From a plasmid, in NCBI RefSeq assembly GCF_053078305.1, contig NZ_CP166875.1: DNA of 64,000 bases; one strand, written 5' to 3'. Every line of letters starts with the position of its first letter. Position 1 is the first letter of the stretch. The notes beneath the pieces were generated by a model, which did not search any database, was not told the DNA's origin, and saw only the letters and a list, made by a program, of their open reading frames with translations. The position numbers and the translations under genes were made by a program. Below are positions 42,088 to 61,289 of this stretch, one piece after another.

Positions 42088-42117
42088 GCGTGATTCACAG
42101 CCTGGCTGAATGCCAGG

Positions 42118-44657: not shown

Positions 44658-44689
44658 GAAAACGTCTCCTTCTGCTGAATCAGGTCGCC

Positions 44690-45070: not shown

Positions 45071-45388
45071 GGTTTTTCAGACATCGGACCGTAGCGGCAG
45101 CCCGAAACCGCGCCAGCGGGTTCGGCGGAGACTGGCGGGTGCGCCAGCAGCTGCCTGTCGGAGTCGGGCCTGACGACCGGATGCCGCCAGGCAGCCGGGA
45201 GCCGAAGGTGTCCCCGCCTCCGGAAATCAGAACAACAGAAACGACATAACAGAAAAATGCCTCACACCATGACGGGCAGGAAGGGCAGCGCCGCAGGCGC
45301 GGCCCTCCTGCATTTCAGGCAGGCGTAAGCCTGCCAGGGTTTTCCGGCGGCCTGGCAGGCCATACCCCCGCCGGAGCGGGGGAGTAAA

Positions 45389-45889
45389 TCACCGACGGAA
45401 CACATGACCGTCAATAAAGGTGAAGGAGTCCAGGAATAAATCCCGCGCATACGCCTCATAGTCAAAATAGAGCGCCACCGTCTCCGGCACGTCAGCCAGC
45501 AGGCCGGTATCACTGGCGAACTCAACCGCAAAAGCCTCCTCACTGTCAGCCTCGCCCCACCAGGCATCGCGGAAGCTGTCAAAATCCGTCTCACCGGTAT
45601 CATCCACCCAGAGACGATAAGCCTCTTCGCAGCCTTCATCCCGTGCCCGGCGGAAGCCTTCAACCCAGGCCCAGTTGATATGACATTCAGAGGCCATATT
45701 CCCCGGGAATCCCTCATAATCCTGAAACATCAGTTCAGGATCGGCTTCATCCTGGTGAAGAGCACGGCAGGCGGCGAAAAAGTCGCGCTCATCATCAAAC
45801 GTGGTCAGGTCAAACCAGCGTCCGGCGATGCTTCCACAGTTGTATTTGTGCCAGGTTCCAACGTATACAGCAGGTGCAACAACAGACAT
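45389..45889 (-). CDS. ardA: antirestriction protein ArdA (DNA mimic)
   Basis: 166-aa highly acidic protein starting MSVVAPAVYVGTWHKYNCGSIAGRWFDLTTFDDE, recognised as ArdA; SD GGAGGA. Confidence 0.85.
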   Translation of the reverse strand: MSVVAPAVYVGTWHKYNCGSIAGRWFDLTTFDDERDFFAACRALHQDEADPELMFQDYEGFPGNMASECHINWAWVEGFRRARDEGCEEAYRLWVDDTGETDFDSFRDAWWGEADSEEAFAVEFASDTGLLADVPETVALYFDYEAYARDLFLDSFTFIDGHVFRR

Positions 45890-46302
45890 TCCCGAATCCT
45901 CCATAGTCACATGTTCTGCGACACCGGGCGGTGCCGTGCCTCCATCTTTGCCGGGCCTGCAGGGATGCAAGGGCGCAAGGAAAGCCGCAGCCCGACGCGC
46001 ACGGCTGACGGGAGTTGGAGGGTGAGACCGCGAAATCTGAGCGGGTGAACGACCGGAAAATCACGGCAGACGGGAAGGAGGGACCGGGTGACCGCAGCGG
46101 TTCATCTTACCTTGCAACCCGCCCGCAGAAGCCCGGCTACGATGGAGGCACGGCACAGCCCGCACACGACGCTGAGGCCACATAACTGAAAACCCACAAG
46201 GCCATGCCCCGCATGGCCGGGTAAAGCGGAGCCTGCGGCGACATCCTTTTGCTCTTTCCGGGGACCGGCTGGAAAAGGCGGAGATTTTCCCCGCCAGCGT
46301 CA

Positions 46303-47073
46303 TCATTTCCGGATTTTCGCCAGTGCATCCGCCATGCTGCGGATTTCAGTCCGGGCTTCCAGGACCACCTCCCGCAGAATATCCCGGTCAAACCAGCGAC
46401 GGGACGGTTCATCAGGTATACGCAGCACATCGCAGGCCAGCCCACTGGACAGGATATGCTCCACACACTCACTGACCAGATACATTTCCACCGACGAAAA
46501 ACGAGCGCCCCGGTTCAGGATGGCATCGAGCACCACGGGCAGGTTTTCGTCGTCTTCATCGAGCCAGCAGGGGTGATCGCTTTCCTTCACAACCAGACGA
46601 AAGCGGCGCGTCTGGCGGGTCAGCAACGTCTGACCGGTGGTAGTCAACGCCGCACGGATACGCCGCGCATCTTCTGCCACCCGGCAACTGACACTGCATA
46701 CTGCATCGCGCACCGCATCAAGAACTGCCCTGATTTCGTCTTCGGTCAGCCATTCTCCGGCATACGGGAAAGACACCTGCGTTCCGTCTGCCGGAAGTAC
46801 CGGCAGCGACTGCCACTGACTGCCGGACAGAACAAGTTCCGCCCCGGTTCCGGTCAGTTTCTGAATGGCAGAGGCCAGGAGCGGCGGCAGTACGCCGCCG
46901 TGACGGTTGATAAGTAACGTCGCCAGCCGGGGCGCATCCAGCCGCACGTAAATGCTGATCCAGCCCGGATACTTCGGGTTCCGCTGGTCAACATCCGTTT
47001 CTTCCGGCCAGCCCTGCGCCAGCAACAGGTTGCTGGCGTGGCGATAAATCAGTGCATTCAGCGTTTCATTCAT
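46303..47073 (-). CDS. hypothetical leading-region protein (256 aa)
   Basis: SD GGGAG before ATG; same strand as ardA. Confidence 0.5.
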
Positions 47074-47117
47074 AATTCATGAACTCCCTGTATCGCCGCC
47101 CGAAGGCGGCGATAACA

Positions 47118-47552
47118 TCAGTCGTTTTCGTGTGTGTTGTTTTTCAGCAGGGTGCGGGCCTGATTAACCACCTCCTGACGGCGGGTGACGCATTCCGGGA
47201 CGGCGAGGCCATGATCCCGGGCGGCCCATTCACGTTTCCACAATGCCTGCTCAGCGGTCTGAATCAGGGACGCCAGCAGTTCAGCAGGGACGGTCACCTG
47301 GCGGTTTTCGCTCACGTTATTGATGATCTCCATCACCGCAGCGGAAGAAATACCGGACTCAATCCGCTGTTCTTCCGGGATGTCCTCCAGGCGTGCCAGG
47401 ACGGTCCTGATTTCATGACCGGTCAGAGAAATTTCCATACCGTCAGCCAGTGCCTGAATCTCTTCCGGGGACCAGACAACCAGCATCAGCGGCGTGTTCT
47501 CCGTATACTGCGCTGCCAGCTCACGGCAGAGCGTTTCGCATGTTCCGTACAT
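47118..47552 (-). CDS. hypothetical leading-region protein (144 aa)
   Basis: SD AAGGAGA before ATG 47552. Confidence 0.45.
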   Translation of the reverse strand: MYGTCETLCRELAAQYTENTPLMLVVWSPEEIQALADGMEISLTGHEIRTVLARLEDIPEEQRIESGISSAAVMEIINNVSENRQVTVPAELLASLIQTAEQALWKREWAARDHGLAVPECVTRRQEVVNQARTLLKNNTHEND

Positions 47553-47565
47553 TCTCGTCTCCTTC

Positions 47566-47787
47566 TCAATCTTTAAAGCACGCATCCAGTTCCAGAATTT
47601 CGGTATATGCCTCCATCAGGAGGCGGTTTGCGCGAAACAACGTCTGACGCACCAGACGTTCCGGCAGGGTGTCAGCATTAAAGCTGTACCGCCGCTCCAT
47701 CTCATTCATGGTTGTACGCAGGTCGCACATGGCATTGGCCACATCCGCCACTTCGGCGCGAAGTTTTTCGTGTCCGGCATAGTTCAT
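47566..47787 (-). CDS. hypothetical small protein (73 aa)
   Basis: SD GGAGG before ATG; start overlaps the methyltransferase stop. Confidence 0.4.
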   Translation of the reverse strand: MNYAGHEKLRAEVADVANAMCDLRTTMNEMERRYSFNADTLPERLVRQTLFRANRLLMEAYTEILELDACFKD

Positions 47788-48471
47788 TTACGCAGCCTCC
47801 GGCATAAACCAGTCATCATTCGCGGCCCCCTGCTGCATGGCCCGTTGTACGGCGGCAAGGCGTTGCTGCCCGGCACGGTGATACTGCTCAAGCAGCTCGA
47901 TACCGATATACCGGCGTCCGGACTGGAAGGCGGCCACGCAGGTTGAGCCGCTGCCTGCAAACGGGTCCAGCACAATTGCGTTCGGGTGTGTGAAGCTCTC
48001 AATCAGCGGTTGCAGGCTGGTAACGGGCTTTTCCGTCGGGTGATGACGATTGCCTGAATATTTCCAGCCCAGCACGTCCGGCAGCGGGTTTTGTGGCAGA
48101 CGTGGACGGCCTTTTGCCAGGATGTAGGCACATTCGTGGCGATAGCCCACATATGCGGCCTTCGATGTGTAGTTTTTGGTGAAGACCAGGTGACCAACAA
48201 CGCTGAATCCCGCATTTTTCCAGGCAGACATAAAACGATCGACGCGATTCCAGCCATAGAAGCTCACCATTAACGCGTCTTTTTTGAGTACGCGGTACAT
48301 CTCATTACAGGCCGGTTGCAGCCATTCATCGGTTTTATCGCCGGCAATGGTACGCCCCTGACGGTCACGAAAACCGACGAGGTACGGCGGGTCGGTGAGG
48401 ATGAAATCAATGGCGTTATCAGGGATACGGGCCATAACATCGATGCAGTTACCGAGGACAAAACGGGACAT
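47788..48471 (-). CDS. orphan DNA methyltransferase (N6-adenine/N4-cytosine class, DPPY motif)
   Basis: Motif IV FILTDPPYL; C-terminal AdoMet-binding segment VLDPFAGSGSTCVAA; SD GAAGGAG; no adjacent restriction enzyme gene. Confidence 0.7.
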   Translation of the reverse strand: MSRFVLGNCIDVMARIPDNAIDFILTDPPYLVGFRDRQGRTIAGDKTDEWLQPACNEMYRVLKKDALMVSFYGWNRVDRFMSAWKNAGFSVVGHLVFTKNYTSKAAYVGYRHECAYILAKGRPRLPQNPLPDVLGWKYSGNRHHPTEKPVTSLQPLIESFTHPNAIVLDPFAGSGSTCVAAFQSGRRYIGIELLEQYHRAGQQRLAAVQRAMQQGAANDDWFMPEAA

Positions 48472-48485
48472 ACCAAACTCCTTCT

Positions 48486-48830
48486 CTTACAGAGGGCACC
48501 GGGAGGGCCCCCCTGTGGTGCCCGTTCCCCGCTGCCTGTGGGCTGTTCACCGCGTCCGGTAACGGGTCAGGCCGACCGTGGAATACCGCAGCCGTCGTCT
48601 TTTTGACGGCAAGGTTATGCCGCGAAAGCGGCTTGAAGGGCGTTCATCAGAAAAGGGCGACGGGCTGGCGTACACTGTCACCGGTGCCAGCCGGGAGCGG
48701 TAAAAGCGCCCGTCCCGTGCCCGGCCGGACGCGGGACACTGACCACAGGCAGCGTTTATGCCGCGCCGCGTCAGCCGGCGCAGTAAAAAGAGGAGCACGG
48801 CGACATCCTTTGTCGGAAAAGAAACGGGCG
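48486..48830 (-). promoter_or_regulatory. long imperfect-hairpin element, family B copy 1 (Frpo/ssi-like ssDNA promoter candidate)
   Basis: Near-identical to 49800-50115; distal arms complementary (CGCTGCCTGTGG ... CCACAGGCAGCG); contains TTGACGG. Confidence 0.45.
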
Positions 48831-48855
48831 GTTGCCCGCCCGTCTCCGTCATACT

Positions 48856-49782
48856 TCATCCGCCATAATGCGCCACCTTGTCGACTATCCACGCAGGTCC
48901 GGTGACTTCCGGCAGCTCATCGTCATCTGTCGGGGAAGACCATTCCAGTTCCCCCCACAGCACATCAACGAGCTCTCCGCGCTCATACAACTGCCAGCCA
49001 CAGAAATTGCAGCCCTGTTCGGCGTACCAGTGCTCCAGCGTGCAGCCGAAACGGCGGCTTAATTCTGCAACAACGTCGCTTTCCGGCTGACACCACGGCG
49101 TGTCGAAATCTACCTGAATGAAGTTTTCCCCCTGACTGCTGATATTCAGGTCATACCCACAAGGCCACTTCACGCCATACCGTTCTGTATACCAGTGATA
49201 TGCAGAAGGAACACCGTTCAGAACACCGCCGTTAAAGCCATTCACTTCAATATCCAGGCGGGTCGGCAAAACCGTCAGCAGGTCAAACGGCATGGTTTTT
49301 TCCGGCAGTACGTTGTCACACAGACGGTTCCACCACACCGATACATCCTCGTTACCCCAGATGTCACACCAGTCACCTCTTTTTGCGGTGAAATGCACAG
49401 TGATAGTTTCCCTGACATCATCCGGTAACTCTTCCCAGCGACGCTGTCCAGTACCGCTCTGCAGCCAGAGTTCATGCAGCATCAGGCAGTTTTGCTCATC
49501 CAGCAGTACACCGTTCTGCAGGTGTGTCAGCCAGCGGGTGAACGCGATATTTTCCGGTGATACAGCACCACGTCCGGCAGCCGTCACTCCGGGGCACTGC
49601 TCAGAGCGGATATTTTCAGTGATCTGCAGAAGTCCGGCACTTCCGGCCAGAAACAGCTGAATACCTTCATTTGTGGCGCGGCGATAAAACGGTGTGACTG
49701 CACCGCTGGCCAGTCGTTTAATCTCAGCAATCTGTGCCGGTTCACCAGAAAAATACATACGATTCGAGCACCAGTTTGGCAT
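48856..49782 (-). CDS. hypothetical leading-region protein (308 aa), Trp/Cys-rich
   Basis: SD GAGGAG before ATG 49782; directly downstream of element B2. Confidence 0.5.
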   Translation of the reverse strand: MPNWCSNRMYFSGEPAQIAEIKRLASGAVTPFYRRATNEGIQLFLAGSAGLLQITENIRSEQCPGVTAAGRGAVSPENIAFTRWLTHLQNGVLLDEQNCLMLHELWLQSGTGQRRWEELPDDVRETITVHFTAKRGDWCDIWGNEDVSVWWNRLCDNVLPEKTMPFDLLTVLPTRLDIEVNGFNGGVLNGVPSAYHWYTERYGVKWPCGYDLNISSQGENFIQVDFDTPWCQPESDVVAELSRRFGCTLEHWYAEQGCNFCGWQLYERGELVDVLWGELEWSSPTDDDELPEVTGPAWIVDKVAHYGG

Positions 49783-49799
49783 GGGAATTCTCCTCACAG

Positions 49800-50115
49800 G
49801 AGCACCGGGAGGGAGCCCCTGTGGCGCCCGTTCCCCGCTGCCTGTGGGCTGTTCACCGCGTCCGGTAACGGGTCAGGCCGACCGTGGAATACCGCAGCCG
49901 TCGTCTGTTTGACGGCAAGGTTATGCCGCGAAAGCGGCTTGAAGGGCGTTCATCAGAAAAGGGCGACGGGCTGGCGTACACTATCACCGACGCCAGCCGG
50001 GAGCGGTAAAAGCGCCCGTCCCGTGCCCGCCGGACGCGGGACACTGACCACAGGCAGCGTTTATGCCGCGCCGCGTCAGCCGGCGCAGTAAAAAGAGGAG
50101 CACGGCGACATCCTT
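49800..50115 (-). promoter_or_regulatory. long imperfect-hairpin element, family B copy 2
   Basis: About 97% identical by eye to copy 1 over roughly 310 bp. Confidence 0.45.
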
Positions 50116-50159
50116 TTCCCCTGAACATCCGTCAGCCTTTCTCTGCGGCAAGATCAATC

Positions 50160-50385
50160 CTTAACAGAAAAAAAACCAACAAGCACCCACATAAAAAACA
50201 AAAAACCCAAGCAACACCCACACAAACAAAAAAAACACCCAGAAAACACCCAAAGACAAACAACAATAAAGTAATGAAACCCATAAAACACCCAAAAAAA
50301 GACAAAAAAGATTAAATAGCACTTGAACGCCACCAAAAAAATACTATTATGGGTATAGACACCCAAACGACACCCAAAAGAGGAT
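50160..50385 (+). repeat. parC-like centromere: A/C-rich iterons (ACACCCA and variants)
   Basis: At least 8 direct copies of (A)ACACCCA in a C/A-rich tract directly upstream of the ParM-like gene. Confidence 0.45.
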
Positions 50386-50388
50386 TTT

Positions 50389-51360
50389 ATGATTAAGATA
50401 TTCTGTGATGATGGTTCTACAGCGGTTAAGCTGGCATGGTTTGAAAACGGGGAACTAAAAACCCTCATTAGTCACAATTCTTTCAAGGAAGGCTGGAACA
50501 CATCAGGATTTGGCAGTGAGAAAACTTATAATTACTTAGTCGATGGAGAGAAATATGCGTTTGATACACATAACCCATCAGCAATAGTCACAACCAATAT
50601 TGAGTTTCAATATAGTGTAGAAAATCGTCTCGCTGTACATCACGCACTACTACAAACAGGAATGGAGCCTGGGGATGTAGAGCTTTGGGTTACATTACCT
50701 GTATCTGAATATTTCACTACAGATATGCAAGAGAATTCGGATAACATAAGAAAAAAAATAGAAAACCTGAAAAAAGAAATTACACTGAATAAAGGCAGCG
50801 TATTTTCAATCAAGAAAGTTCATGTATTACCCGAGTCTCTACCTGCAGCGTTGACCTCTCTCGAAGAGGATAAAGTCAGTGATCTTGAAACGTCCCTTGT
50901 CGTCGATCTTGGTGGAACAACTCTTGATTGTGGCGCTATAGCTGGCAGATATAAAAATGTAACACAAGTATCCGGAGAACCTGGTCTTGGCGTAACTCTG
51001 GTAACAACGGCGACAATGAATGCCCTGAAACAGGCAGGAACGCATACCAGCTACTATATTGCAGATCAACTGGTTAGAAACAGAAATGCTGATGATTTAT
51101 TCGAAATTGTTGTTAATGACAGCAGTAAAATAGATGATGTGAAATCAGTAATTGAAAACAGTATTACAAGACTTTCAGACAGAGTTATAAATCATTTACA
51201 CTCGTACAAAGGGATAAATCGTATATACATGACTGGTGGTGGTGCGGAACTAATCTACCCTGCAATAAAAAAAGCATTCCCCTTATTAAAGGATAAAGTA
51301 AAAATTTTACCAGATGCGCAATTAGCCCTTGTTATTTCTATTGCTGAAATAAATCGATAA
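50389..51360 (+). CDS. parM: actin-like plasmid segregation ATPase (ParM/StbA family)
   Basis: N-terminal IFCDDGSTAVKLAW and phosphate-2 motif VVDLGGTTLD; overall resemblance to R1 ParM; 323 aa. Confidence 0.75.
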   Translation: MIKIFCDDGSTAVKLAWFENGELKTLISHNSFKEGWNTSGFGSEKTYNYLVDGEKYAFDTHNPSAIVTTNIEFQYSVENRLAVHHALLQTGMEPGDVELWVTLPVSEYFTTDMQENSDNIRKKIENLKKEITLNKGSVFSIKKVHVLPESLPAALTSLEEDKVSDLETSLVVDLGGTTLDCGAIAGRYKNVTQVSGEPGLGVTLVTTATMNALKQAGTHTSYYIADQLVRNRNADDLFEIVVNDSSKIDDVKSVIENSITRLSDRVINHLHSYKGINRIYMTGGGAELIYPAIKKAFPLLKDKVKILPDAQLALVISIAEINR

Positions 51361-51371
51361 TGAGGTACAGG

Positions 51372-51923
51372 ATGAGTGATGAACGTCGTAAATTATGGCT
51401 ATACTTATATCCTGATGAGCCACAGCAAAAATCCGCAATAGAAACCATTGAAGAAATACCTCAAAGACAACGTTCTGATTTCTTCAGAGATAGTATTGTT
51501 GCAGGTATTGCATTATCAAAACTCGATAAACGATTACCTGCACTTGTATCTATGTTACTACAGCAAGATAGTAATATAGATACTCTTGTACGTATTTTAA
51601 AAATACTATTCCCCAAGCTTGATATTGACTCAACGGAAGATAAATCTACACTCTGTGCCGTTGCTTGGCAAAAAAGATGTCGGGATGAATTACAACAAGG
51701 CACACCATGGTCTGCCTGGTTTGCGATTAGTGAGGATGAATATAATCATCATCTTAATCATCCAGAATCAAACAGTCAGGTACGTGCATTATGGGCTTAT
51801 GATGAAAACGAGCAGAAAAAGGATATACAGGATAAAGAGAGAACGCCCTTTCCGGAGGCCAACACCAATACAAGTTCAGAAACATTGAGTAATGCTAAAA
51901 AATTATTTGGTAATTCAAATTAA
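51372..51923 (+). CDS. putative partition adaptor (ParR/StbB-position)
   Basis: Immediately follows the ParM-like gene; no motif recognised, assignment by position only. Confidence 0.35.
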   Translation: MSDERRKLWLYLYPDEPQQKSAIETIEEIPQRQRSDFFRDSIVAGIALSKLDKRLPALVSMLLQQDSNIDTLVRILKILFPKLDIDSTEDKSTLCAVAWQKRCRDELQQGTPWSAWFAISEDEYNHHLNHPESNSQVRALWAYDENEQKKDIQDKERTPFPEANTNTSSETLSNAKKLFGNSN

Positions 51924-51936
51924 TTATTCAAAGAAA

Positions 51937-51958
51937 ATCCCGGTCGAAGGGCCGGGAT
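51937..51958. terminator. bidirectional hairpin between convergent parR-like gene and helicase
   Basis: ATCCCGG-tcgaaggg-CCGGGAT. Confidence 0.45.
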
Positions 51959-52033
51959 GTTTACACGTTAACCACCCTGCAATTCTGCCACTCCTGATGC
52001 GGAATAACAGGACAGGACCGGGAACAGTCAGGC

Positions 52034-53560
52034 TCACTTTTTTCTCCGTCGTCTGCCACGCGCTCTGCTGCCTGTATTTTTTTCCCGGGATGCCGGCTCA
52101 CTCTGCAATGCCGGGGGAGGTACCTGTTTCAGGAGCTGGCGCAGCACACTGTTGAGGATCAGCGTCCGCCGAGCCCGTGTGGCAGCCACATAGAGCAGGT
52201 TGAGTTCATCCCGCAGTTTCTCTTCAAATTCCTGCACATTGTCCGTTCCCGGCTGCTCAAGCTCCTGAAAATCCTCATGCAGCCTCACTGTGTCCCATTC
52301 CAGGCCTTTGGCCCTGTGCACCGTGGTGACAGTCACGGCAGCAGCCTTTTCGTCACGGACCTCATATTTTCGCAGCGTGGCCACATGTTCCGGCAGCGGC
52401 GAAAACTTCTGAATGATAGCCACTGACTGCAGCATTTCCGCGTCCCGGCTTGCCTTTGCCGTCGCCTCATAGTCAGAGAACGACTCCCACGCAGCAAAGC
52501 GAGCCGGCTCCCGGATTTTTTCCGTCATTCCCACAGAAAACCACCACAGATCCAGCAGGCGGGCAACCGGCCAGGCATTCATACCGTTGATCCAGTATGT
52601 TTTCTGCTTCCTCCGGGCCGCGTGAAGCGCAGCACCAATCACGCCCATCACTGTCCGGCACAGCACCGCACAGTGAGGCATATTCCTCTCGGGTTTCAGC
52701 AACAGACGGTCATCACCGCCAAGCCCACAGACTTTTTTCGTCTCCCCGTCCAGAGCCAGCACAGCATTTGCCACATCTGCCACACAGGGACCGAAACGGA
52801 AACTGCCGGTAAGCCACAGCCTGTCTGCCGTGGCCAGAGAGGGGGTATTCAGCGCATCCACGGCACCCCGGAAGCGATAAATCTGCTGATGTGGATCACC
52901 CACCATCACCAGCGTTCCACGGTGGCGCAGGACCAGGTCGGAGATCACCGGACTGGCGTCCTGGGCTTCATCAAACAGGATTTCATCGTACTTTGCGGAC
53001 AGATCCGGCTGCGAAAGCTGGTACAGCTTCAGATACAGATCATGAACGACCGGAAAGTCATCACTGCGGTCGCACATTCTTTGCCAGAGACGCACGGCCA
53101 GCGGCAGCACCTCTGCTGCGCGCAGTGGCGGCCTGGCACGGACATGCACCTCAGACAACGTCGTGTCCGCACTGTTCATGAAAGCCTGTAGGGTTTCCCT
53201 GACGGCCGCAGCCAACGGCCACTGGCGCAGTGAAAGCGCCCCGGCGATATCAGTAATGCCCAGGGAAGGCACGAGACGGTGGGAGTAATGTCGTCCAAAT
53301 TCCGGCCACGCCAGCTGATGTGCAGTCCGGCAACAGACATTCACCGGGAAGCGTGCCTGAGCCTCCTCCCGGACAGACCGGTTGAATGCGATATAGAGCA
53401 TACGGCGTTCAGGCCGGGCCTGCGCATAAGCCACCAGTGTGGCTGTTTTGCCGGTGCCGGCAAAAGCCCTGACAACCAGTCGCTGTCCCTGCCAGTTAAT
53501 GACAGCCTGTTGTTCAGCGGTCGGAGCGTGACGGATTTTCCTGACCGGGTGCTGAGTCAT
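52034..53560 (-). CDS. UvrD/Rep-like superfamily-1 DNA helicase (about 508 aa)
   Basis: Walker A AGTGKTAT, motif II FDEAQD, C-terminal VTTVHRAKGLEWDTV; ATG overlaps the upstream stop (ATGA). Confidence 0.7.
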   Translation of the reverse strand: MTQHPVRKIRHAPTAEQQAVINWQGQRLVVRAFAGTGKTATLVAYAQARPERRMLYIAFNRSVREEAQARFPVNVCCRTAHQLAWPEFGRHYSHRLVPSLGITDIAGALSLRQWPLAAAVRETLQAFMNSADTTLSEVHVRARPPLRAAEVLPLAVRLWQRMCDRSDDFPVVHDLYLKLYQLSQPDLSAKYDEILFDEAQDASPVISDLVLRHRGTLVMVGDPHQQIYRFRGAVDALNTPSLATADRLWLTGSFRFGPCVADVANAVLALDGETKKVCGLGGDDRLLLKPERNMPHCAVLCRTVMGVIGAALHAARRKQKTYWINGMNAWPVARLLDLWWFSVGMTEKIREPARFAAWESFSDYEATAKASRDAEMLQSVAIIQKFSPLPEHVATLRKYEVRDEKAAAVTVTTVHRAKGLEWDTVRLHEDFQELEQPGTDNVQEFEEKLRDELNLLYVAATRARRTLILNSVLRQLLKQVPPPALQSEPASREKNTGSRARGRRRRKK

Positions 53561-54183
53561 TTTGCCGTTGCGTCCTCCCCGTCCGTCATCCCGGCCAGAG
53601 CGACCTGTTTTTTCTCCCACCGTCGGTCCCGGATGGCCAGCCAGCGTTGAGCATTTTTTGCCTCATCCTCAGAAACCAGCCCGGCAGGCTTACCGTCGAG
53701 GTCATAGCGGGTGGCACCGGTGACAGCGGTACGCAACAGATAGACACGGCGGGAGGTGATACAGGATACGGCACAGTCCCATTCATCCCGGGTGAGTCCG
53801 GCTTCAGGGTGCTCAGCCAGCCAGGCAGGAATATCGCGGGAGATACCGACCCTGAGAGGCAGAAAACCGCCGCCTTCAGCGCGAAGATGCGGGAAAATCG
53901 CCTTGACCTTTTCCATGCACTGGTCGGTGAACTCCCGTGTCCAGTGCTCTCTGAGGGGTCTGCGTGGTGGTCTTCCTTTCCTTTTTTTTCCGACGGCAGC
54001 AGGCGCAGGAGACGCATCCTGGATGGGGGCTGGCAGCTGCTCATCAGCAGCAGCCGGTGGTGCCCCCACTTCCGGTACAGGCGAAATGACAGTCTCTGTT
54101 TTATCGACGACAGGTGGTGGTGAAATAACGCGACGTTTTTTCACCACAATGACGGGCGTTTTCTTTTCCTGATTCCTGGCCAT
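53557..54183 (-). CDS. ProQ/FinO-domain RNA-binding protein (FinO-like)
   Basis: Basic/Pro-rich N-terminus; C-terminal domain aligns by eye with FinO (PLRVGISRDI ... GATRYDLDGKP ... EDEAKNAQRWL). Confidence 0.55.
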   Translation of the reverse strand: MARNQEKKTPVIVVKKRRVISPPPVVDKTETVISPVPEVGAPPAAADEQLPAPIQDASPAPAAVGKKRKGRPPRRPLREHWTREFTDQCMEKVKAIFPHLRAEGGGFLPLRVGISRDIPAWLAEHPEAGLTRDEWDCAVSCITSRRVYLLRTAVTGATRYDLDGKPAGLVSEDEAKNAQRWLAIRDRRWEKKQVALAGMTDGEDATAK

Positions 54184-54635
54184 TAATACCCCGACAAGAT
54201 TAAATTCTGGTTAACGATATCATTATACAGCGAATAATATAATTATGGTTCACGTATTATTATCCGTGACTCTTTCCTGGTAACTCCCGCATAATAACTT
54301 CACTTTTCCAGTATTCCAGAAGATGATGTTTTTTCCTCGATAATAAAAATGTGCCAATATGGAAATAAGAAATCGGATTTTTTATCAGCATACGCAAATT
54401 TTCAGATAACAATGAATACAGATGTATTTTATATACACAGATAAAACCGCGCAACAGACATAAATATGACAGTAGCATGAAAAAGCAGAGAGAGACAGGG
54501 TGATACAGAAAAGTAACTATTTTTTTAGCTATAGTATTATTGGTTTTACCTATTTTCGTGATTGTGTTTCTGTATATTGGGGGTTCGCGCCCATTTCCTC
54601 TAAAAGTCTCACCTTGCTTAGGTAATTAATTGAAT

Positions 54636-55217
54636 TTATTTATAAAACGTTGCAATTTTAGCATCATTTTTTATTGTTCTTTTTAACCTGAAGTACGTCG
54701 ATCGAGAGATACCTGTTTTTTCTGTCACACTGCCCAGAGATTCTCCCTGTGATATAAGCTCCAACGCTGTAGGCGTTCGTGGATGCTTCTTCCTGCCAAA
54801 TTTTACGCCTGCGGCAAGTGCCGCTATTCTTCCGTCGTTTGTCCGCTCCAGAATACGCTCACGTTCCGCTTCAGCTACAGCAGCAAGGATTTGGATAACC
54901 ATTTTGCCCATTGTCCCTTCTGTACTGAGACCGTTCTCCAGGAACCGGATGGCGATCCCCTTTTTGTAACAGCTATCAACCACACGAATCATGTCAGCAG
55001 TGTTACGCCCCAGTCGGTCCATTTTTGTACAGATGATTACGTCGTCTTTCTCTGCACGGGCCAACAACCGCTGTAGTCCTTCCCGTTCATCAGTTGCGCC
55101 AGTCATCATATCCGTAAAAATACGATCTTCCCGTACCCCGGCATTTTTTAGCTCCGAGATTTGATGTGTTAGCTTCTGATGACTGGTTGATACCCGTGCA
55201 TACCCCAATAACGCCAT
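54636..55217 (-). CDS. tnpR: serine recombinase (resolvase TnpR)
   Basis: N-terminal LLGYARVSTSHQ catalytic motif; C-terminal HTH. Confidence 0.8.
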   Translation of the reverse strand: MALLGYARVSTSHQKLTHQISELKNAGVREDRIFTDMMTGATDEREGLQRLLARAEKDDVIICTKMDRLGRNTADMIRVVDSCYKKGIAIRFLENGLSTEGTMGKMVIQILAAVAEAERERILERTNDGRIAALAAGVKFGRKKHPRTPTALELISQGESLGSVTEKTGISRSTYFRLKRTIKNDAKIATFYK

Positions 55218-55373
55218 TTTTAGTCTCACTTATCGTTTTTGACACTGCATGGTATCATAATGTACAAAATACGATTTTTGAAACCTGCTTTTATGCTGTT
55301 TTAGACAGGTATCAGATATCTTAATATTTGATACTAGCCATATTTAACAAATATTTAGCATTTTGGTAAATGT
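55218..55373. promoter_or_regulatory. res site region between divergent tnpR and tnpA
   Basis: AT-rich 156-bp divergent intergenic region; subsites not resolved. Confidence 0.4.
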
Positions 55374-58300
55374 ATGCAGAAGTACAAGAAAAGAATTAGT
55401 ATATTAACAAAAAGTGAAATAAATGAATTATATCAAGTCCCCTCTTTTAATCCTGTTGAAAGGGATGAGTTTTTTTCGCTGGATATCAGCCTTAAAAGAG
55501 AAATTGATAAAATAATAAATATAGAAAGCAGGGTGTATCTGATATTAATAACAGGGTATTTCAGATATAAACCTGTGATTCCTGAATTTACATTAAAAGA
55601 CGTAAAAAGGGATGTGAAATATATTATCCAGACATATTATAAAAACGAAAGTACTAATCTCAATTTAAACATACCTAAAAGTACAAAGTACCGCCTTGTT
55701 AAACGAATGCTTTCTACTCTAGGATTTGAACAACTCACCCCATCTATAAAAAATGAGTTAAGTGAACGTCTGAATGATGTTGCTACTATATGTATGGAAC
55801 CAAAATATATTTTTGATGAATTACTTGCTTTTTTAGGACAGCGGCGTATAGCTCTTCCTGGATACAGTACTGTCCAGAACCTCGTTTCAGATGCTTTAAA
55901 CTTTGAAAGGAAAAGGACAATTAATATTTTGTCAAAGAGAATTTATCCTGCCACTGCACAAAAGATTACATCCATCATCCATGATGATGGAATATTAAAT
56001 TCCATCAGGGGATATAATTATAGCACGAGAGACTTCTCAGCATCAGAAATAGAAAATGAATTAAGAACTCACAATGTGATAAGTAGTATTTACTATGAAA
56101 TAAAAGATATAATTAATTCATTAGGTATATCCCAGGGAAACATGGAGTACTATGCAACTATCGTAAAACACAGTACAACATTCAGACTTAAGCGACACCC
56201 TAAATGGCAAGGAATACTTTATTTGTGCTGCTACTTGTACTTCAGATACAGAGAGATAAATGATAAAATAATCACAGCCTTCAGATATTTAGTAAAAAAA
56301 CATAAAGACGCTTCAGTTTTGTTTGCAAAAGCTCGGGCAACAGAGGAAATAGATCTAATAAATAAAAAGCTTAAGTTTGCGAGTAAAATATTTAACTTCT
56401 TCGTTGATAGTAACATTGAAGACAGCATCCCTTTTGGATATGTTCGTGAAAAGGTTTTTTCACTTATATCGAAAGATGATATGCATCTTGTGAGTGAATT
56501 TTTTGACAAAAATAAAATCGATGTAATTGAATATCAATGGCAGTATATTGACAGCCATCACCTTAAGATCGCCAATTCAATCCGAAAGCTTTTTCTGGCT
56601 ATAGATATAGTATATGACAACGAGAAGTCTGTTATTGGCCAGCAAATTACTGCTGCCAAGGATGATCTCAGAGGAAAAGGAAAGCTGGATGCTAAGGATC
56701 TGAGGGTAATTCATCCATCCGAGAAAAATTACATTGTAAAAGAAGGAGAAATTAACACTCAACGATTCGAATTTCATATGTACAGCAGGGTATCTAACCA
56801 TCTGGAAAACGGTGTCTTTTATGCTGCGGAGAGTGAACAAAACAAGAGACTGGAAGATGATCTCATAGAACGAAGTTACTGGCATAAGAATAAATCGATT
56901 TTGATAGAGAAAACAGGCCTTGAACGACTTATCACACCAATAACGCAGACTCTTAATGAGCTGGAGAATACCTTTAGCGATAAACTGGCTCGTATAACCA
57001 TTGGAATAAACTCAGATGCTAATGAGTTTGTGAAAAAACAACCACACTCCAACAGATTACAGTGGAGTCTGGCCAGTAAAAAATGGAAGACCAGCATCGA
57101 TAATCCGATTTACAATCAGATAAAAAATATCGGAATAGTTGACGTAATGAAGTATGTAAACAATGAGACGAATTTTTTGTCTGTGTTTAATGCCATATCA
57201 TCCAGGAAAAATAATCTTGAAGCTGACTATAATGACCTTCTTGCCTGTATATTTGGTAATGGCGCAAATTATGGTGTTCACAGAATGGCATCTGCATCAG
57301 ACCGTAGTATTGGAATACTACGTGATGTGAATGACAAATTCATTCGTCCAGAAACAACAGGAATGGCCAACACAGTAATATCTGATGCAATTGCAAATCT
57401 TTCTGTATATAAATACTGGACGATAAATGAAGATTCTCCATTTGGAAGTGTTGATGGGCAGAAGCACACTTGCAGAATAAATACATTTAAAGCCCGTTAT
57501 TCTGCCAAGTATTTCAGAAAGGGGAAAGGGGTTTCTGCGATGACACTGGTATCTAATCATGTGCCATTATCAACTGTGGTAATTTCTCCAAATGAATATG
57601 AAGGTCATTTTGCATTTGACTTGTTATATAACAACACCAGTGAAATACAACCAAAGTCATTAGCGACTGACAATCATGGTATAAACAACGTTAATTTTGC
57701 GATTCTTGACATTTTTGGCTATCAGTTTTCACCACGTTATGCAAAATTCAAGAAAATATTTAATGAATTATTTGATGTTATACTGGAGAGTGATAAACTC
57801 ATTATAAAACTTAAAAAACAATTTAACTTTAAGCTCATTGAACATGAATGGGAAAACATCCAACATATTATTTGTTCTTTAAGCAGAAAAACAACCATTC
57901 AAAGTACGGTTGTTAAGAAGTTATCTAATACAAAGCGTAGCAACAAGACATTAGCAGCACTTCGGGAGTATGACCGAGTTATAAAATGCATATATGTCCT
58001 GGATTATGCTGACAATAAAACCTTAAGGCAATTTGTGCAACAAGCACTGAACAGAGGTGAAGCTTATCATCAACTAAGAAGAGCAATAGCATCAGTAAAT
58101 GGAAATCAATTTCGCGGTGGTAATGACTACCAAATAGATCAATGGAACGACTGTGCGAGGTTAATAGCTAATTGTGTAATCTATTATAATTCAGCAATAT
58201 TATCCAGGCTGGTCGAGAAATTTGAAAAAGAAAATAATAAAAAAGCGATAGATGTTCTGGCTAACTTATCCCCAGTAGCATGGAGACACATTCTCCTTGG

Positions 58301-58412
58301 AGGGAATTATTCTTTTGAAGATCAAGTTGCGATCACAAATTTGGACAGTCTTTTGGAGGGAGTAGACCCACTAAGTGATATCGGAGATATTGAGTCCGAA
58401 TATGACGGTTAA
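55374..58412 (+). CDS. tnpA: Tn3-family transposase TnpA (1012 aa)
   Basis: Size, N-terminal region and position inside the IR-bounded element. Confidence 0.8.
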   Translation: MQKYKKRISILTKSEINELYQVPSFNPVERDEFFSLDISLKREIDKIINIESRVYLILITGYFRYKPVIPEFTLKDVKRDVKYIIQTYYKNESTNLNLNIPKSTKYRLVKRMLSTLGFEQLTPSIKNELSERLNDVATICMEPKYIFDELLAFLGQRRIALPGYSTVQNLVSDALNFERKRTINILSKRIYPATAQKITSIIHDDGILNSIRGYNYSTRDFSASEIENELRTHNVISSIYYEIKDIINSLGISQGNMEYYATIVKHSTTFRLKRHPKWQGILYLCCYLYFRYREINDKIITAFRYLVKKHKDASVLFAKARATEEIDLINKKLKFASKIFNFFVDSNIEDSIPFGYVREKVFSLISKDDMHLVSEFFDKNKIDVIEYQWQYIDSHHLKIANSIRKLFLAIDIVYDNEKSVIGQQITAAKDDLRGKGKLDAKDLRVIHPSEKNYIVKEGEINTQRFEFHMYSRVSNHLENGVFYAAESEQNKRLEDDLIERSYWHKNKSILIEKTGLERLITPITQTLNELENTFSDKLARITIGINSDANEFVKKQPHSNRLQWSLASKKWKTSIDNPIYNQIKNIGIVDVMKYVNNETNFLSVFNAISSRKNNLEADYNDLLACIFGNGANYGVHRMASASDRSIGILRDVNDKFIRPETTGMANTVISDAIANLSVYKYWTINEDSPFGSVDGQKHTCRINTFKARYSAKYFRKGKGVSAMTLVSNHVPLSTVVISPNEYEGHFAFDLLYNNTSEIQPKSLATDNHGINNVNFAILDIFGYQFSPRYAKFKKIFNELFDVILESDKLIIKLKKQFNFKLIEHEWENIQHIICSLSRKTTIQSTVVKKLSNTKRSNKTLAALREYDRVIKCIYVLDYADNKTLRQFVQQALNRGEAYHQLRRAIASVNGNQFRGGNDYQIDQWNDCARLIANCVIYYNSAILSRLVEKFEKENNKKAIDVLANLSPVAWRHILLGGNYSFEDQVAITNLDSLLEGVDPLSDIGDIESEYDG

Positions 58413-58478
58413 CAACATGATAAATAATGGTTTTTATGCTAAGAGTGAGACTTTTGGAGGAAATGGGCGCAGAACCCC

Positions 58479-60856: not shown

Positions 60857-61015
60857 CTACTTACCGGATTCGTAAGCCATGAAAGCCGCCACCTCCCTGT
60901 ATCCGTCTCTGTAACGAATCTCGCACAGCGATTTTCGTGTCAGATAAGTAAATATCAACAGTGTGAGACACACAATCAACACACACCAGACAAGAGAGCT
61001 GCGTGGTAGTTTCAT
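60857..61015 (-). CDS. hok: Hok/Gef-family type I toxin
   Basis: Encodes [52 protein letters not shown]. Confidence 0.8.
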
Positions 61016-61072
61016 GGCCTTCTTCTCCTTGCGCAAAGCGCGGTAAGAGGCTATCCTGATGTTGTCAGACAT
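60857..61072 (-). CDS. mok-like overlapping leader frame
   Basis: In-frame upstream extension ([19 protein letters not shown]-) of hok, as in hok/mok/sok loci. Confidence 0.4.
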
Positions 61073-61289
61073 ATGGGATGCCTCGTGGGTTAATGAAAAA
61101 TTAACTACGGGGCTATCTTCTTTCTGCCACACAACACGGTAACAAACCACCTTCACGTCATGAGGCAGAAAGCCTCAAGCGCCGGGCACATCATAGCCCA
61201 TATACCTGCACGCTGACCACACTCACTTTTCCTGAAAATAACCCGCTCATTCAGGCTGTTTACGGGTAATCTGTGTGATTGTTGCCGCA

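What the first reader, a model, noticed from the sequence alone, without database searches (positions are those of the whole stretch)
52034..54183. FinO/ProQ-domain RNA-binding gene translationally coupled to a short UvrD-like helicase
The FinO-like ORF (53557-54183) ends in ATGA with the start of a 508-aa SF1 helicase, implying co-expression from the AT-rich promoter region at 54184-54578. Pairing an RNA chaperone domain with a DNA helicase in a leading region is unusual. It could couple antisense-RNA control to processing of incoming DNA, or act as an anti-defence helicase.
Basis: partly seen in the sequence, partly recalled or inferred. Interest (0 to 1): 0.55.

Follow-up and report, generated by a model that had tools for sequence, protein, structure and literature searches.

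The report
Plasmid FopA and FBH1-like helicase operon
On this conjugative E. coli-type plasmid, a gene for a known kind of RNA chaperone (FopA, which controls plasmid copy number) shares a four-base overlap, and so very probably one transcript, with a DNA helicase that resembles human FBH1; the pairing is real but rare, and the helicase has been lost repeatedly, so the two proteins probably do separate jobs.

Summary
ORF 53557-54183 (-) encodes a 208-aa protein with a C-terminal FinO/ProQ domain, confirmed by Pfam, PDB sequence matches and a predicted fold. Its TGA stop overlaps the ATG (ATGA) of a 508-aa SF1A helicase at 52034-53560 (-).

The window is an I-complex (IncK2/Z-type) conjugative plasmid.

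- **FinO gene.** It belongs to the FopA family, about 55% identical to the IncI1 type and 37-40% to IncI2 PcnR-type proteins. It sits in the usual repA-toxin/antitoxin-fopA replicon module.
- **Helicase.** It is not a generic UvrD. Its nearest solved relative by far is human F-box helicase FBH1 (phmmer E 6.5e-66; Foldseek E 1e-39, TM 0.78).
- **Helicase family.** It is large and carried by mobile elements: over 1,700 plasmids, ICEs where it abuts MOBH relaxase genes, and phages. There it almost never has a FinO neighbour.

The fopA-helicase operon with its ATGA junction is conserved in three diverged lineages, and the helicase is under purifying selection (dN/dS 0.12-0.22). At least five related plasmid lineages keep fopA with a decayed or deleted helicase.

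Co-expression is therefore supported, but mechanistic coupling of RNA control to DNA unwinding is not. The module lies next to the replicon, beyond parMR, and not in the ssDNA-promoter leading region. Interest is modest.

The parts
53557..54183 (-). fopA-family gene, 208 aa. It has a disordered basic N-terminal region (residues 1-70, with the near-invariant PVIVVKKRR motif) and a FinO/ProQ RNA-binding domain.
   Evidence: ORF and sequence. Pfam PF04352, E 4.6e-14. PDB sequence matches to the ProQ N-terminal domain 5nb9 and RocC 7rgu. Family alignment A2. AlphaFold model and Foldseek. Identity is 55-56% to the IncI1-type protein and 37-40% to the IncI2 type.
53578..53937 (-). FinO/ProQ domain, with its C-terminal helix, of the FopA-like protein (residues about 83-202).
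   Evidence: Model pLDDT is 85-96 here. Secondary-structure elements are H83-96, H112-124, H132-152, E158-160, E166-169 and H172-202. The top 26 Foldseek PDB hits are RocC, FinO, NMB1681 and Lpp1663.
53557..53560 (-). ATGA junction: the fopA stop (TGA, 53557-53559) overlaps the helicase start (ATG, 53558-53560).
   Evidence: Sequence. The junction is identical in lineages A, B and C and is even kept in plasmids where the helicase is deleted.
53574..53578 (-). GGAGG Shine-Dalgarno-like motif inside the end of fopA, 13 nt before the helicase ATG. This spacing is long, so helicase translation probably relies partly on termination-reinitiation.
   Evidence: Sequence. GGGGAGGAC is conserved in L026 and L027. 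The dependence on coupling is inference.
52034..53560 (-). FBH1-type SF1A (UvrD-family) DNA helicase/translocase gene, 508 aa. Walker A (AGTGKT) is at 53444-53461 and DEAQD at 52958-52972. The C-terminal tail (residues 484-508) is disordered and basic.
   Evidence: Pfam. phmmer against PDB: FBH1 9xzj, E 6.5e-66, over residues 14-497. Model pLDDT 90.3. Foldseek: FBH1 E 1e-39 and TM 0.78, against UvrD/PcrA/Rep at E about 1e-17. The motifs are invariant in alignment A3. dN/dS is 0.12-0.22.
54222..54283 (-). Promoter-like elements upstream of fopA. A perfect TATAAT lies at 54222-54227, 39 nt before the ATG. The scan also found a TTACCA-16 nt-AATAAT site at 54283-54256.
   Evidence: Scan, sequence. 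This proximal roughly 100 nt is shared with lineage L020, and a TATAAT-like element sits at the same place in the other lineages. No transcription data are available, so function is inferred.
51937..51958 (-). Terminator-like hairpin followed by a T-run, 76 nt after the helicase stop and facing the end of the convergent parR gene.
   Evidence: Scan. Consensus match only.
54580..58478 (.). Context, not part of the operon: an inserted Tn3-family element with resolvase at 54636-55229 (-), transposase at 55374-58412 (+) and roughly 34-nt terminal inverted repeats. It cuts the native fopA upstream region 397 bp before the start codon.
   Evidence: Homology to the reference plasmid ends at 54580. 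Inverted repeats. ORFs. The same element, 98.5% identical, lies upstream of fopA in L026.
50389..51923 (+). Context: parM/parR (StbA/StbB-type) partition genes, convergent with the helicase. They separate the operon from the leading region proper.
   Evidence: ORFs. Annotation of the 99.98%-identical reference.

Best explanation
This is a two-gene operon in the replicon-proximal accessory region of an I-complex (IncK2/Z-type) conjugative plasmid.

**Gene 1.** It is a FopA-family FinO-domain RNA chaperone. By homology it binds the plasmid's Inc/RNAI antisense RNA and speeds its pairing with the repZ/repA leader, which holds down Rep synthesis and copy number.

**Gene 2.** It is translationally coupled through an ATGA overlap. 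It encodes an FBH1-type SF1A 3'-5' ssDNA translocase/helicase from a large family carried by plasmids, ICEs and phages.

**Likeliest job of the helicase.** It acts as a plasmid-borne substitute for host UvrD. It would work on the plasmid's single-stranded or nicked intermediates, clearing RecA and secondary-structure roadblocks from the transferred strand. That would let complementary-strand synthesis proceed and limit SOS induction and recombination.

**Relationship between the two.** They are co-expressed but functionally separable. The helicase is an optional add-on to the fopA locus.

**What is shown here.**
- the gene structures and the fold and family assignments;
- conservation of the operon;
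- independent distributions of the two families and repeated loss of the helicase.

**What is inferred.**
- the RNA target of this FopA;
- the helicase's substrate and its timing;
- translational coupling in vivo.
For: **Operon.**
- ATGA junction, SD-like motif, a single GC island, upstream promoter-like elements and one downstream terminator-like hairpin.
- The junction is conserved in three lineages: A at 100%, B with FopA 89% and helicase 97%, and C with FopA 67% and helicase 91%.

**FopA membership.**
- FinO domain and fold.
- Family-wide N-terminal motif.
- The fixed repA-TA-fopA arrangement.
- The 99.98%-identical reference plasmid carries the PK-repZ pseudoknot (RF01087, 164 bits) and a weak, sub-threshold CopA-like antisense match upstream of repA.
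- IncI1 FopA binds Inc RNA and accelerates Inc-repZ pairing about 7-fold (PMC7491321; PMC9977716).

**Helicase.**
- FBH1 is by far the closest solved structure.
- All SF1 motifs are invariant, and dN/dS is 0.12-0.22.
- FBH1 is a 3'-5' ssDNA translocase that disassembles RAD51 filaments (PMC12946210).
- Recipient UvrD is needed for ss-to-ds conversion of IncI1, F and R388 plasmids. The defect is suppressed by deleting recA, and B. subtilis PcrA was tested as a complement for the uvrD deletion in that study (PMC10085688).
- UvrD resolves an ssDNA-promoter roadblock in the F leading region (bioRxiv 10.64898/2026.01.09.698686).
- The operon has the same orientation as the leading-region genes, so the T-strand is its template.

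**Separability.**
- The helicase occurs without FinO on more than 1,700 plasmids, on ICEs and in phages.
- fopA occurs without the helicase in about 3,000 plasmids.
- Helicase remnants lie downstream of intact fopA in L002, L023/L024, L025 and CP0258xx; E. albertii plasmids carry helicase fragments among IS elements with no fopA found beside them.
Against: - There are no expression or biochemical data for this locus.
- FopA here is only about 55% identical to the characterised protein, so its RNA target is assumed rather than shown.
- The window itself does not contain the rep/Inc region.
- No ssDNA-promoter-like repeat lies upstream of fopA. Early expression in the recipient would therefore need ordinary dsDNA promoters, which weakens a role before strand conversion.
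- In ICEs and some plasmids the family abuts MOBH relaxase or tra genes. That points as much to a donor-side DNA-processing role.
- Conservation of the tight junction across dS up to 0.7 could also reflect a need for fixed stoichiometry between interacting partners.
Confidence: 0.6

Rival explanations
1. The helicase works on the donor side as a DNA-processing helicase. It would partner the helicase-less relaxase (NikB here, MOBH TraI elsewhere) to unwind DNA from the nick at oriT, or drive rolling-circle replication, as PcrA with HelP does for ICEBs1. FopA would simply be its operon neighbour.
For: - In Salmonella ICE contigs the helicase gene overlaps the TraI_2 (MOBH) relaxase gene by 11 nt.
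- In a Pantoea plasmid it directly precedes a TraI-domain gene.
- In IncC and a Vibrio plasmid it precedes traF-traH-traG.
- In a Citrobacter plasmid it lies near mobH.
- ICEBs1 needs the host UvrD-family helicase PcrA plus a processivity factor for conjugation and replication (PMC3542172, title and abstract; PMC10085688).
Against: - In the I-complex plasmids the gene is 20 kb from nikAB and next to the replicon.
- Most I-complex plasmids transfer without it.
Confidence: 0.25
2. FopA and the helicase would act in one pathway or complex. For example, FopA-bound RNA could target or regulate the helicase at R-loops or primer RNAs on plasmid DNA, or the helicase could assist RepZ-dependent replication under FopA/Inc control.
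For: - The ATGA junction is conserved in three lineages over dS up to 0.7.
- The two genes share one compositional island.
- Both lie 3 kb from repA, inside the replicon module.
- The helicase has a disordered, basic C-terminal tail (RGRRRRKK) that could bind nucleic acid.
Against: - The two families are distributed independently.
- fopA stays intact after at least five independent helicase losses.
- IncI1 FopA works on Inc/repZ in vitro without any helicase (PMC7491321).
- In lineage C, FopA has diverged to 67% identity while the helicase stays at 91%, so the pair does not co-evolve.
- A 4-nt overlap is the commonest operon junction, and it survives even where the helicase is gone.
Confidence: 0.1
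3. The helicase is a defence or anti-defence factor. It could be a Gabija GajB-like component, or a decoy or antagonist of host nuclease-helicase systems such as RecBCD or Gabija, that protects incoming plasmid DNA.
For: - PADLOC GajB profiles match (best E 2.7e-24).
- Leading-side plasmid genes are enriched for anti-defence functions (PMC11541004, title and abstract).
- The family is also found in large lytic phages.
Against: - The GajB matches cover only the shared SF1 motif blocks (for example residues 187-267 and 407-471), and GajB structures score E about 1e-3 against 6.5e-66 for FBH1.
- No GajA/OLD-type nuclease gene lies next to it in any context examined.
- No Frpo-like element lies upstream.
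Confidence: 0.08
4. The helicase is a passenger in decay with no present function on this plasmid. The operon structure would be a relic.
For: - The helicase has been lost or truncated repeatedly in sister plasmids.
- Only 6 of the 51 complete E. coli genomes that carry this fopA clade keep the intact pair.
Against: - The ORF here is intact, with all catalytic motifs.
- Where intact it is under purifying selection, with dN/dS 0.12-0.22 at dS up to 0.40.
- The FopA variant of lineage B (P0122) is listed in 198 index blocks of the public assemblies, and all six places examined carry the intact helicase.
Confidence: 0.05

Closest known systems
FopA (YafB) of IncI1 plasmid pCol1B9, Salmonella
   Same: - Both have a FinO/ProQ domain preceded by the family-specific disordered N-terminus with the KKTPVIVVKKRR motif.
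- Both are encoded a few kb downstream of an I-complex repZ/repA replicon that has the Inc antisense RNA and pseudoknot control.
- The size is about 200 aa (PMC7491321).
   Different: - Identity to the dominant IncI1-type protein (the 3,123-member cluster) is only about 55%.
- Here the gene runs in the same direction as yacAB-exo rather than converging on it.
- Here it is followed by a translationally coupled helicase instead of yagA-side genes.
- RNA binding of this variant has not been tested.
- I could not retrieve the pCol1B9 record itself, so I used a ColIb-type IncI-gamma/K1 plasmid as proxy.
PcnR of IncI2 plasmids, and FinO of F-like plasmids
   Same: These are plasmid-encoded FinO-domain repressors. 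PcnR controls copy number and FinO controls transfer. The IncI2 protein is 37-40% identical and also lies 2 kb downstream of repA (PMC9977716). The fold search also matches FinO 1dvo.
   Different: They have different RNA targets and mechanisms. PcnR binds the repR leader directly, and FinO acts on FinP/traJ. The NCBIfam FinO and ProQ models score far below their cut-offs (21 and 27 bits against 136 and 127).
Human F-box DNA helicase 1 (FBH1), helicase domain (PDB 9xzj, 9xzm)
   Same: This is the closest solved structure by a wide margin. phmmer gives E 6.5e-66 over residues 14-497, and Foldseek gives E 1e-39, TM 0.78 and 33% identity. All SF1A motifs are shared. FBH1 is a 3'-5' ssDNA translocase that strips RAD51 and reverses forks (PMC12946210).
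   Different: The plasmid protein is the bare helicase core. It has no F-box, no PCNA-interaction motifs and no SCF ligase context. It has a short N-terminal extension and a basic C-terminal tail. Its bacterial partner would be RecA rather than RAD51, and its activity has not been tested.
E. coli UvrD, B. subtilis PcrA and E. coli Rep (canonical SF1A helicases)
   Same: They belong to the same superfamily and share the motif set. UvrD removes RecA from ssDNA and is needed in recipients for plasmid ss-to-ds conversion (PMC10085688). This is the functional analogy proposed here.
   Different: Identity is only 16-18%, with Foldseek E about 1e-17. The plasmid protein is about 200 aa shorter. No NCBIfam equivalog comes near its cut-off (45-55 bits against 540-1,140). 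It lacks the UvrD C-terminal Tudor-like region.
Uncharacterised 'UvrD-helicase domain-containing protein' of IncC plasmids and of SPI-7/PAPI-type ICEs
   Same: They are in the same family, at 44-51% identity over the full length. They are carried by conjugative elements whose relaxases lack a helicase domain.
   Different: They sit next to tra or relaxase genes rather than a replicon, and have no FinO gene alongside. I found no functional study of them.
Gabija GajB
   Same: It is a UvrD-like helicase of similar length (about 490 aa). PADLOC GajB profiles give partial hits.
   Different: The matches are limited to the SF1 motif blocks. The PDB sequence E-value is about 1e-3. No GajA partner is present in any context examined.

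Membership tests
FinO/ProQ RNA-chaperone family (PF04352) | Sequence match to the FinO/ProQ domain profile | tested here: met
   PF04352 for residues 87-192, E 4.6e-14. phmmer against PDB: ProQ N-terminal domain 5nb9 at E 6.5e-7 and RocC 7rgu at 5e-5.
FinO/ProQ RNA-chaperone family (PF04352) | FinO fold (helical domain with a beta-hairpin) | tested here: met
   AlphaFold model with pLDDT 85-96 over residues 80-200. The top 26 Foldseek PDB matches are RocC, FinO, NMB1681 and Lpp1663, all at probability 0.85 or higher.
FinO/ProQ RNA-chaperone family (PF04352) | Binds structured RNA or terminator hairpins | not testable with these tools
   This needs EMSA or CLIP.
FopA subfamily (I-complex plasmid FinO-domain proteins) | Family-specific N-terminal region together with full-length homology to IncI1 FopA-type proteins | tested here: met
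   Identity is 55-56% over 93% of the length to the IncI1/I-gamma protein encoded beside yagA and the colicin Ib genes. P10, V11, I12, V14, K15, K16, R17 and R18 are invariant or nearly so across 41 family members. The pCol1B9 record itself could not be retrieved.
FopA subfamily (I-complex plasmid FinO-domain proteins) | Encoded in the repZ/repA (Inc RNA-controlled) replicon module | tested here: met
   The order repA-TA-fopA is seen in every lineage examined. PK-repZ RF01087 (164 bits) lies upstream of repA in the 99.98%-identical reference. The rep region is not inside the window.
FopA subfamily (I-complex plasmid FinO-domain proteins) | Binds Inc RNA and accelerates Inc-repZ pairing | not testable with these tools
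   This is shown only for pCol1B9 FopA (PMC7491321).
SF1A UvrD-family helicases | Walker A, DExx and helicase motifs III-VI intact | tested here: met
   G35, G37, K38, T39, D197, E198, Q200, D201, G221, D222, Q225, R255, G419, E421, T461 and R462 are invariant in 41 homologues and present here. Pfam also matches.
FBH1-type subgroup of SF1A | Closest sequence and fold relative is the FBH1 helicase core, across all four subdomains | tested here: met
   phmmer E 6.5e-66 over residues 14-497, against 3.6e-7 for the next hit, UvrD. Foldseek E 1e-39 and TM 0.78, against about 1e-17 to 1e-18 for UvrD, PcrA and Rep.
FBH1-type subgroup of SF1A | F-box / SCF ubiquitin-ligase module | tested here: not met
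   The protein starts 13 residues before the helicase core, and Pfam finds no F-box. It is a homologue of the helicase domain only, not an FBH1 orthologue.
FBH1-type subgroup of SF1A | 3'-5' ssDNA translocation and recombinase-filament removal | not testable with these tools
   This needs biochemistry.
Canonical UvrD, Rep, PcrA, HelD and RecB equivalogs | NCBIfam equivalog score above the curated cut-off | tested here: not met
   The best scores are 37-55 bits against cut-offs of 543-1,144.
Gabija (GajA + GajB) | Full-length GajB match together with an adjacent GajA OLD-family nuclease | tested here: not met
   The PADLOC GajB hits are partial motif blocks. No nuclease partner appears in the window or in any related locus.
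Zygotically induced leading-region genes (Frpo/ssDNA-promoter operons) | Same orientation as the leading genes, so that the T-strand is the template | tested here: met
   All leading genes and fopA-helicase are on the same strand, transcribed towards oriT/nikA.
Zygotically induced leading-region genes (Frpo/ssDNA-promoter operons) | An ssDNA-promoter-like hairpin repeat upstream of the operon | tested here: not met
   The four roughly 330-bp repeats lie at 41304-50116, and the last one is before parM. None lies in 54184-54580, and no Rfam or structured element was found there.

The most novel reading that the evidence does not exclude
FopA and the FBH1-like helicase are a working pair. The RNA chaperone would bind Inc RNA, or primer or ssDNA-promoter transcripts, and recruit or gate the helicase on plasmid ssDNA or R-loop intermediates. 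That would tie copy-number control to strand conversion or establishment after transfer. It would be the first FinO-domain protein with a DNA-helicase partner.
Probability: 0.08. Interest if true: 0.7.

Novelty: new variant of a known kind. Interest (0 to 1): 0.35.

Why it matters
FopA is one of only a few characterised plasmid FinO-domain regulators. The published locus description, between yafA and yagA on pCol1B9, does not mention a helicase. This work shows that one FopA clade ancestrally carried a translationally coupled helicase, which many descendants then lost.

The more useful point is about the helicase. It belongs to a large, uncharacterised family carried by mobile elements: 2,880 clusters at 50% identity with E<=1e-30, on plasmids, ICEs and phages. 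Its only close solved relative is eukaryotic FBH1, a translocase that strips recombinase filaments.

Host UvrD was recently shown to be needed for establishment of incoming plasmids, by counteracting RecA. That makes a concrete hypothesis testable: some plasmids carry their own UvrD substitute. If so, it would bear on host range and on how antibiotic-resistance plasmids of the IncC and I-complex groups establish in new hosts.

As it stands, both genes are already annotated in RefSeq, and nothing here requires a new mechanism.

Tried and rejected
- **RefSeq's 528-aa GTG start for the helicase.** Rejected. L026 has no start codon in that frame, and the N-termini of homologues agree with the ATG.
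- **Gabija GajB membership.** Rejected. The hits are partial and there is no GajA.
- **Equivalence to UvrD, Rep, PcrA, HelD or RecB.** Rejected. All scores are far below the NCBIfam cut-offs.
- **A conserved FinO-helicase pair outside the I-complex.** I looked in IncC, Vibrio, Citrobacter, Arsenophonus, Pantoea, Raoultella and Salmonella plasmid and ICE contexts. I found none adjacent. The only near case is a degraded Arsenophonus plasmid with a FinO fragment 1.5 kb downstream of a broken helicase.
- **A structured RNA, or Inc-like RNA, within 51800-54700.** No Rfam match at E<=1.
- **A rep/Inc region in the window.** Absent. It is present in the reference plasmid.
- **Literature on the plasmid helicase, or on FopA with a helicase.** Searches found nothing. 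'FBH1' in PMC4270446 is an isolate name.
- **Direct retrieval of pCol1B9 (HE654725) and R64 (AP005147).** Neither is in the collections.
- **Source names for the IncI1 cluster.** They gave only 'ProQ/FINO family protein', never FopA or YafB.
- **'3'-5' exonuclease' as a name for the helicase cluster**. It looks like a naming artefact. The real DEDD-type exonuclease is a separate upstream gene in the reference plasmid.


Full report
**1. What is in the sequence.**

On the minus strand, an ATG at 54183 opens a 208-codon ORF that ends with TGA at 53557-53559. The A of that TGA's preceding ATG context...GCA AAA TGA CTC..., places an ATG at 53560-53558. That ATG opens a 508-codon ORF ending at 52034.

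Pfam finds a ProQ/FinO domain in residues 87-192 of the first protein (E 4.6e-14). It finds UvrD_C, UvrD-helicase and AAA_19 in the second.

Other features of the locus:
- A GGAGG lies 13 nt before the helicase ATG, inside fopA.
- A perfect TATAAT lies 39 nt upstream of the fopA ATG (54222-54227).
- The scan reports another promoter-like site at 54283-54256, and a hairpin with a T-run at 51937-51958, 76 nt past the helicase stop.
- The two genes form one block of 57-62% GC between flanks of 33-40% GC.

**2. Where the window comes from.**

The 4.8 kb from 49762 to 54580 is 99.98% identical to E. coli plasmid pJNE170426-2 (NZ_AP027219), a conjugative IncK2/Z plasmid with MOBP relaxase and MPF_I mating-pair type.

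In that plasmid the gene order is:
- repA, then the yacAB toxin/antitoxin pair, then a 3'-5' exonuclease;
- the FinO-like gene, then the helicase;
- parR and parM, which converge on the helicase;
- the leading-region genes (methylase, ardA, ssb, psiB and others);
- nikA and nikB.

All leading genes and the FinO-helicase pair are on the same strand, transcribed towards oriT.

In the window, mapping through one search puts nikA at about 39423-39755 and oriT just beyond it. The pair therefore lies 12-14 kb from oriT, on the far side of parMR.

Four roughly 330-bp repeats lie in the leading region, the last at 49788-50116. The T-strand of that copy folds into a long DNA hairpin (-91.9 kcal/mol, z -5.0), as ssDNA promoters do. 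None lies upstream of the FinO gene.

Its two flanks come from different contexts and show no target duplication. The native yacAB-exonuclease-repA segment is therefore not contiguous in this window.

**3. The FinO-like gene is a FopA-family gene.**

tblastn finds full-length relatives in about 3,000 plasmids, nearly all from Escherichia, Salmonella, Shigella and Klebsiella.
- The dominant IncI1/I-gamma form is 55-56% identical. It is a 200-aa protein in a 3,123-member cluster, encoded beside yagA on colicin-Ib plasmids, as published for fopA.
- The IncI2 form, which is PcnR-type, is 37-40% identical.

In every lineage I opened, the gene sits 2.5-3.5 kb downstream of an IncFII-family/I-complex repA, after a toxin-antitoxin pair.

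An alignment of 41 family members shows a near-invariant N-terminal PVIVVKKRR motif and a conserved FinO core.

The AlphaFold model is confident over residues 80-200 (pLDDT 85-96) and disordered over residues 1-70. Its 26 best PDB matches are all FinO-family structures: RocC, FinO, NMB1681 and Lpp1663.

The reference plasmid has the repZ regulatory pseudoknot (RF01087, 164 bits) with a weak, sub-threshold CopA-like match on the opposite strand upstream of repA. This is the kind of RNA pair that pCol1B9 FopA binds and anneals about 7-fold faster (PMC7491321; PMC9977716). That this variant does the same is inference.

**4. The helicase is FBH1-type.**

No NCBIfam equivalog (UvrD, Rep, PcrA, HelD, RecB, AddA) comes near its cut-off. 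PADLOC GajB profiles match only the motif blocks.

Against the PDB:
- Human F-box DNA helicase 1 aligns over residues 14-497 at E 6.5e-66. The next hit, UvrD, is at 3.6e-7.
- The model built from 41 homologues has pLDDT 90.3.
- Foldseek puts FBH1 first (E 1e-39, TM 0.78, 33% identity). UvrD, PcrA and Rep follow at about 1e-17 to 1e-18 with 16-18% identity.

All SF1 motifs are invariant. There is no F-box.

FBH1 is described as a non-canonical SF1 3'-5' ssDNA translocase that disassembles RAD51 filaments and reverses forks (PMC12946210).

**5. Distribution of the helicase family.**

- 1,712 plasmids hold a homologue covering 80% or more of the protein. They are mostly IncC (44.5% identity), but also plasmids of Vibrio, Pseudomonas, Providencia, Acinetobacter and others.
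- The wider protein collection adds many chromosomal copies in Salmonella, Serratia and Xenorhabdus.
- 259 phage records have one.
- An exhaustive HMMER scan finds 2,880 clusters at 50% identity with E<=1e-30. Some are proteins of about 1,000 aa with N-terminal extensions.

The neighbours differ from one element to the next:
- traF-traH-traG in IncC and a Vibrio plasmid;
- mobH nearby in a Citrobacter plasmid;
- a TraI-domain gene directly downstream in Pantoea;
- an 11-nt overlap with a TraI_2 (MOBH) relaxase gene in Salmonella ICE contigs;
- H-NS, Hha, topoisomerase III or HU genes upstream in other plasmids.

None of these has an adjacent FinO gene.

**6. The pair is conserved in one clade, and the helicase is repeatedly lost.**

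Intact fopA-helicase operons with the same ATGA junction occur in three lineages:
- Lineage A is the window plus AP027219, NC_025145 and CP038793.
- Lineage B includes CP088825 and CP056802, and the FopA variant P0122, which is listed in 198 index blocks. FopA is 89% and the helicase 97% identical, and all six places shown carry the helicase.
- Lineage C is Salmonella contig L026, with FopA 67% and the helicase 91% identical.

dN/dS is 0.12-0.22 for the helicase and 0.25-0.43 for fopA. In lineage C, dS for fopA (0.71) is about twice that for the helicase (0.38), so the two genes do not share one history.

Sister plasmids with intact fopA show helicase decay in several ways:
- The PerC-type plasmids (about 33 in PLSDB) keep the ATGA and only the first 70-90 nt of the helicase.
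- L023 and L024 have a frameshifted gene that ends at residue 226.
- L025 has a 5' stub, plus a C-terminal fragment 2.7 kb away.
- Four CP0258xx plasmids end at residue 190.

E. albertii plasmids carry helicase fragments among IS elements, with no fopA found next to them.

Among 5,426 complete E. coli genomes, 51 carry this fopA clade and 6 carry the intact pair. All copies are on plasmids.

**7. Interpretation.**

The sequence evidence supports a bicistronic, probably translationally coupled operon. It does not support a mechanistic partnership, for three reasons:
- The two families are distributed independently.
- fopA survives helicase loss.
- IncI1 FopA acts on its RNAs without a helicase.

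For FopA I take the published mechanism as the default.

For the helicase the best lead is recent work on host UvrD:
- Deleting uvrD in recipients lowers acquisition of IncI1, F and IncW plasmids 10-100-fold.
- The defect lies in ssDNA-to-dsDNA conversion and is suppressed by deleting recA. The same study also tested B. subtilis PcrA as a complement for the uvrD deletion (PMC10085688).
- UvrD also clears an ssDNA-promoter roadblock in the F leading region (bioRxiv 10.64898/2026.01.09.698686).

A plasmid-borne relative of a recombinase-stripping translocase, oriented so that the T-strand is its template, is a natural candidate for a self-supplied UvrD-like function. I put this at about 0.4.

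The relaxase-adjacent contexts in ICEs make a donor-side unwinding or rolling-circle role the main rival, at about 0.25. Direct FopA-helicase cooperation is at about 0.1, defence or anti-defence at about 0.08, and a functionless relic at about 0.05.

**8. Novelty and value.**

Both genes are annotated in RefSeq, as 'ProQ/FINO family protein' and 'UvrD-helicase domain-containing protein'. FopA is a described family.

I could not find the following in the literature:
- the coupled fopA-helicase variant of the locus, with its pattern of conservation and decay;
- the recognition that this helicase family, widespread on mobile elements, is FBH1-type.

It is a new variant of a known kind, of modest interest, with one clearly testable hypothesis attached.

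Noticed in passing
window 54580-58478: A 3.9-kb Tn3-family element consisting only of resolvase (54636-55229, -), a 1,012-aa transposase (55374-58412, +) and roughly 34-nt GGGG-type terminal inverted repeats. The 5-bp flanks differ (TATTG and TGTAT), and the two sides come from different plasmid contexts, so it probably mediated a rearrangement. The same element, 98.5% identical, sits upstream of a diverged fopA-helicase operon in Salmonella contig L026, at a different junction.
   Followed up: partly
window 41304-41634, 44708-45038, 48482-48811, 49788-50116: Four copies of a roughly 330-bp GC-rich repeat in the leading region. The + strand, which is the transferred strand, of the last copy folds as ssDNA into a long hairpin (-91.9 kcal/mol, z -5.0). 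These look like Frpo/ssi-type single-stranded DNA promoters.
   Followed up: partly
window about 45897-46248, and 61434-64000: Relative to the reference plasmid, the oriT-proximal leading region lacks the ssb-parB-psiB-psiA block (reference 14681-21277), with the junction at one of the 330-bp repeats. A different, 87%-identical psiA/psiB/parB-like segment with IS66-family genes lies beyond the Tn3-family element. The plasmid is therefore a mosaic.
   Followed up: partly
L001 2375-3223 (reference plasmid; not in the window) and L003 1932-2801 (IncC): The DEDD-type 3'-5' exonuclease next to yacAB in I-complex plasmids is 51% identical to an IncC exonuclease. IncC also carries the helicase homologue 3 kb away, so exonuclease and FBH1-like helicase co-occur on two unrelated backbones.
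   Followed up: partly
L018 5001-8058, L019 2615-5672, L009 5007-8246: In Salmonella ICE contigs and a Pantoea plasmid, the FBH1-like helicase gene overlaps or directly precedes a MOBH (TraI_2) relaxase gene. This suggests that the family often works as a relaxase-associated helicase.
   Followed up: partly
window 27136-27292 (-), 61013-61184 (-), 30792-30879 (+): Rfam finds two sok antitoxin RNAs (hok/sok loci) and one AgrB-type antisense RNA (dinQ-like type I toxin locus), all above their gathering scores.
   Followed up: no
window 53561-53620 (RefSeq WP_244060170.1 in NZ_AP027219): RefSeq starts the helicase at a GTG 60 nt upstream of the ATG, giving 528 aa. Some cluster members are named '3'-5' exonuclease'. 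Both look like annotation artefacts.
   Followed up: yes
P0268, P0269, P0283, P0327, P0342: Among the best family representatives are proteins of about 1,000 aa in which the helicase core starts at residue 145-200. They may be eukaryotic FBH1-like proteins or bacterial fusions. Their origin, and the direction of transfer between mobile elements and eukaryotes, was not examined.
   Followed up: no
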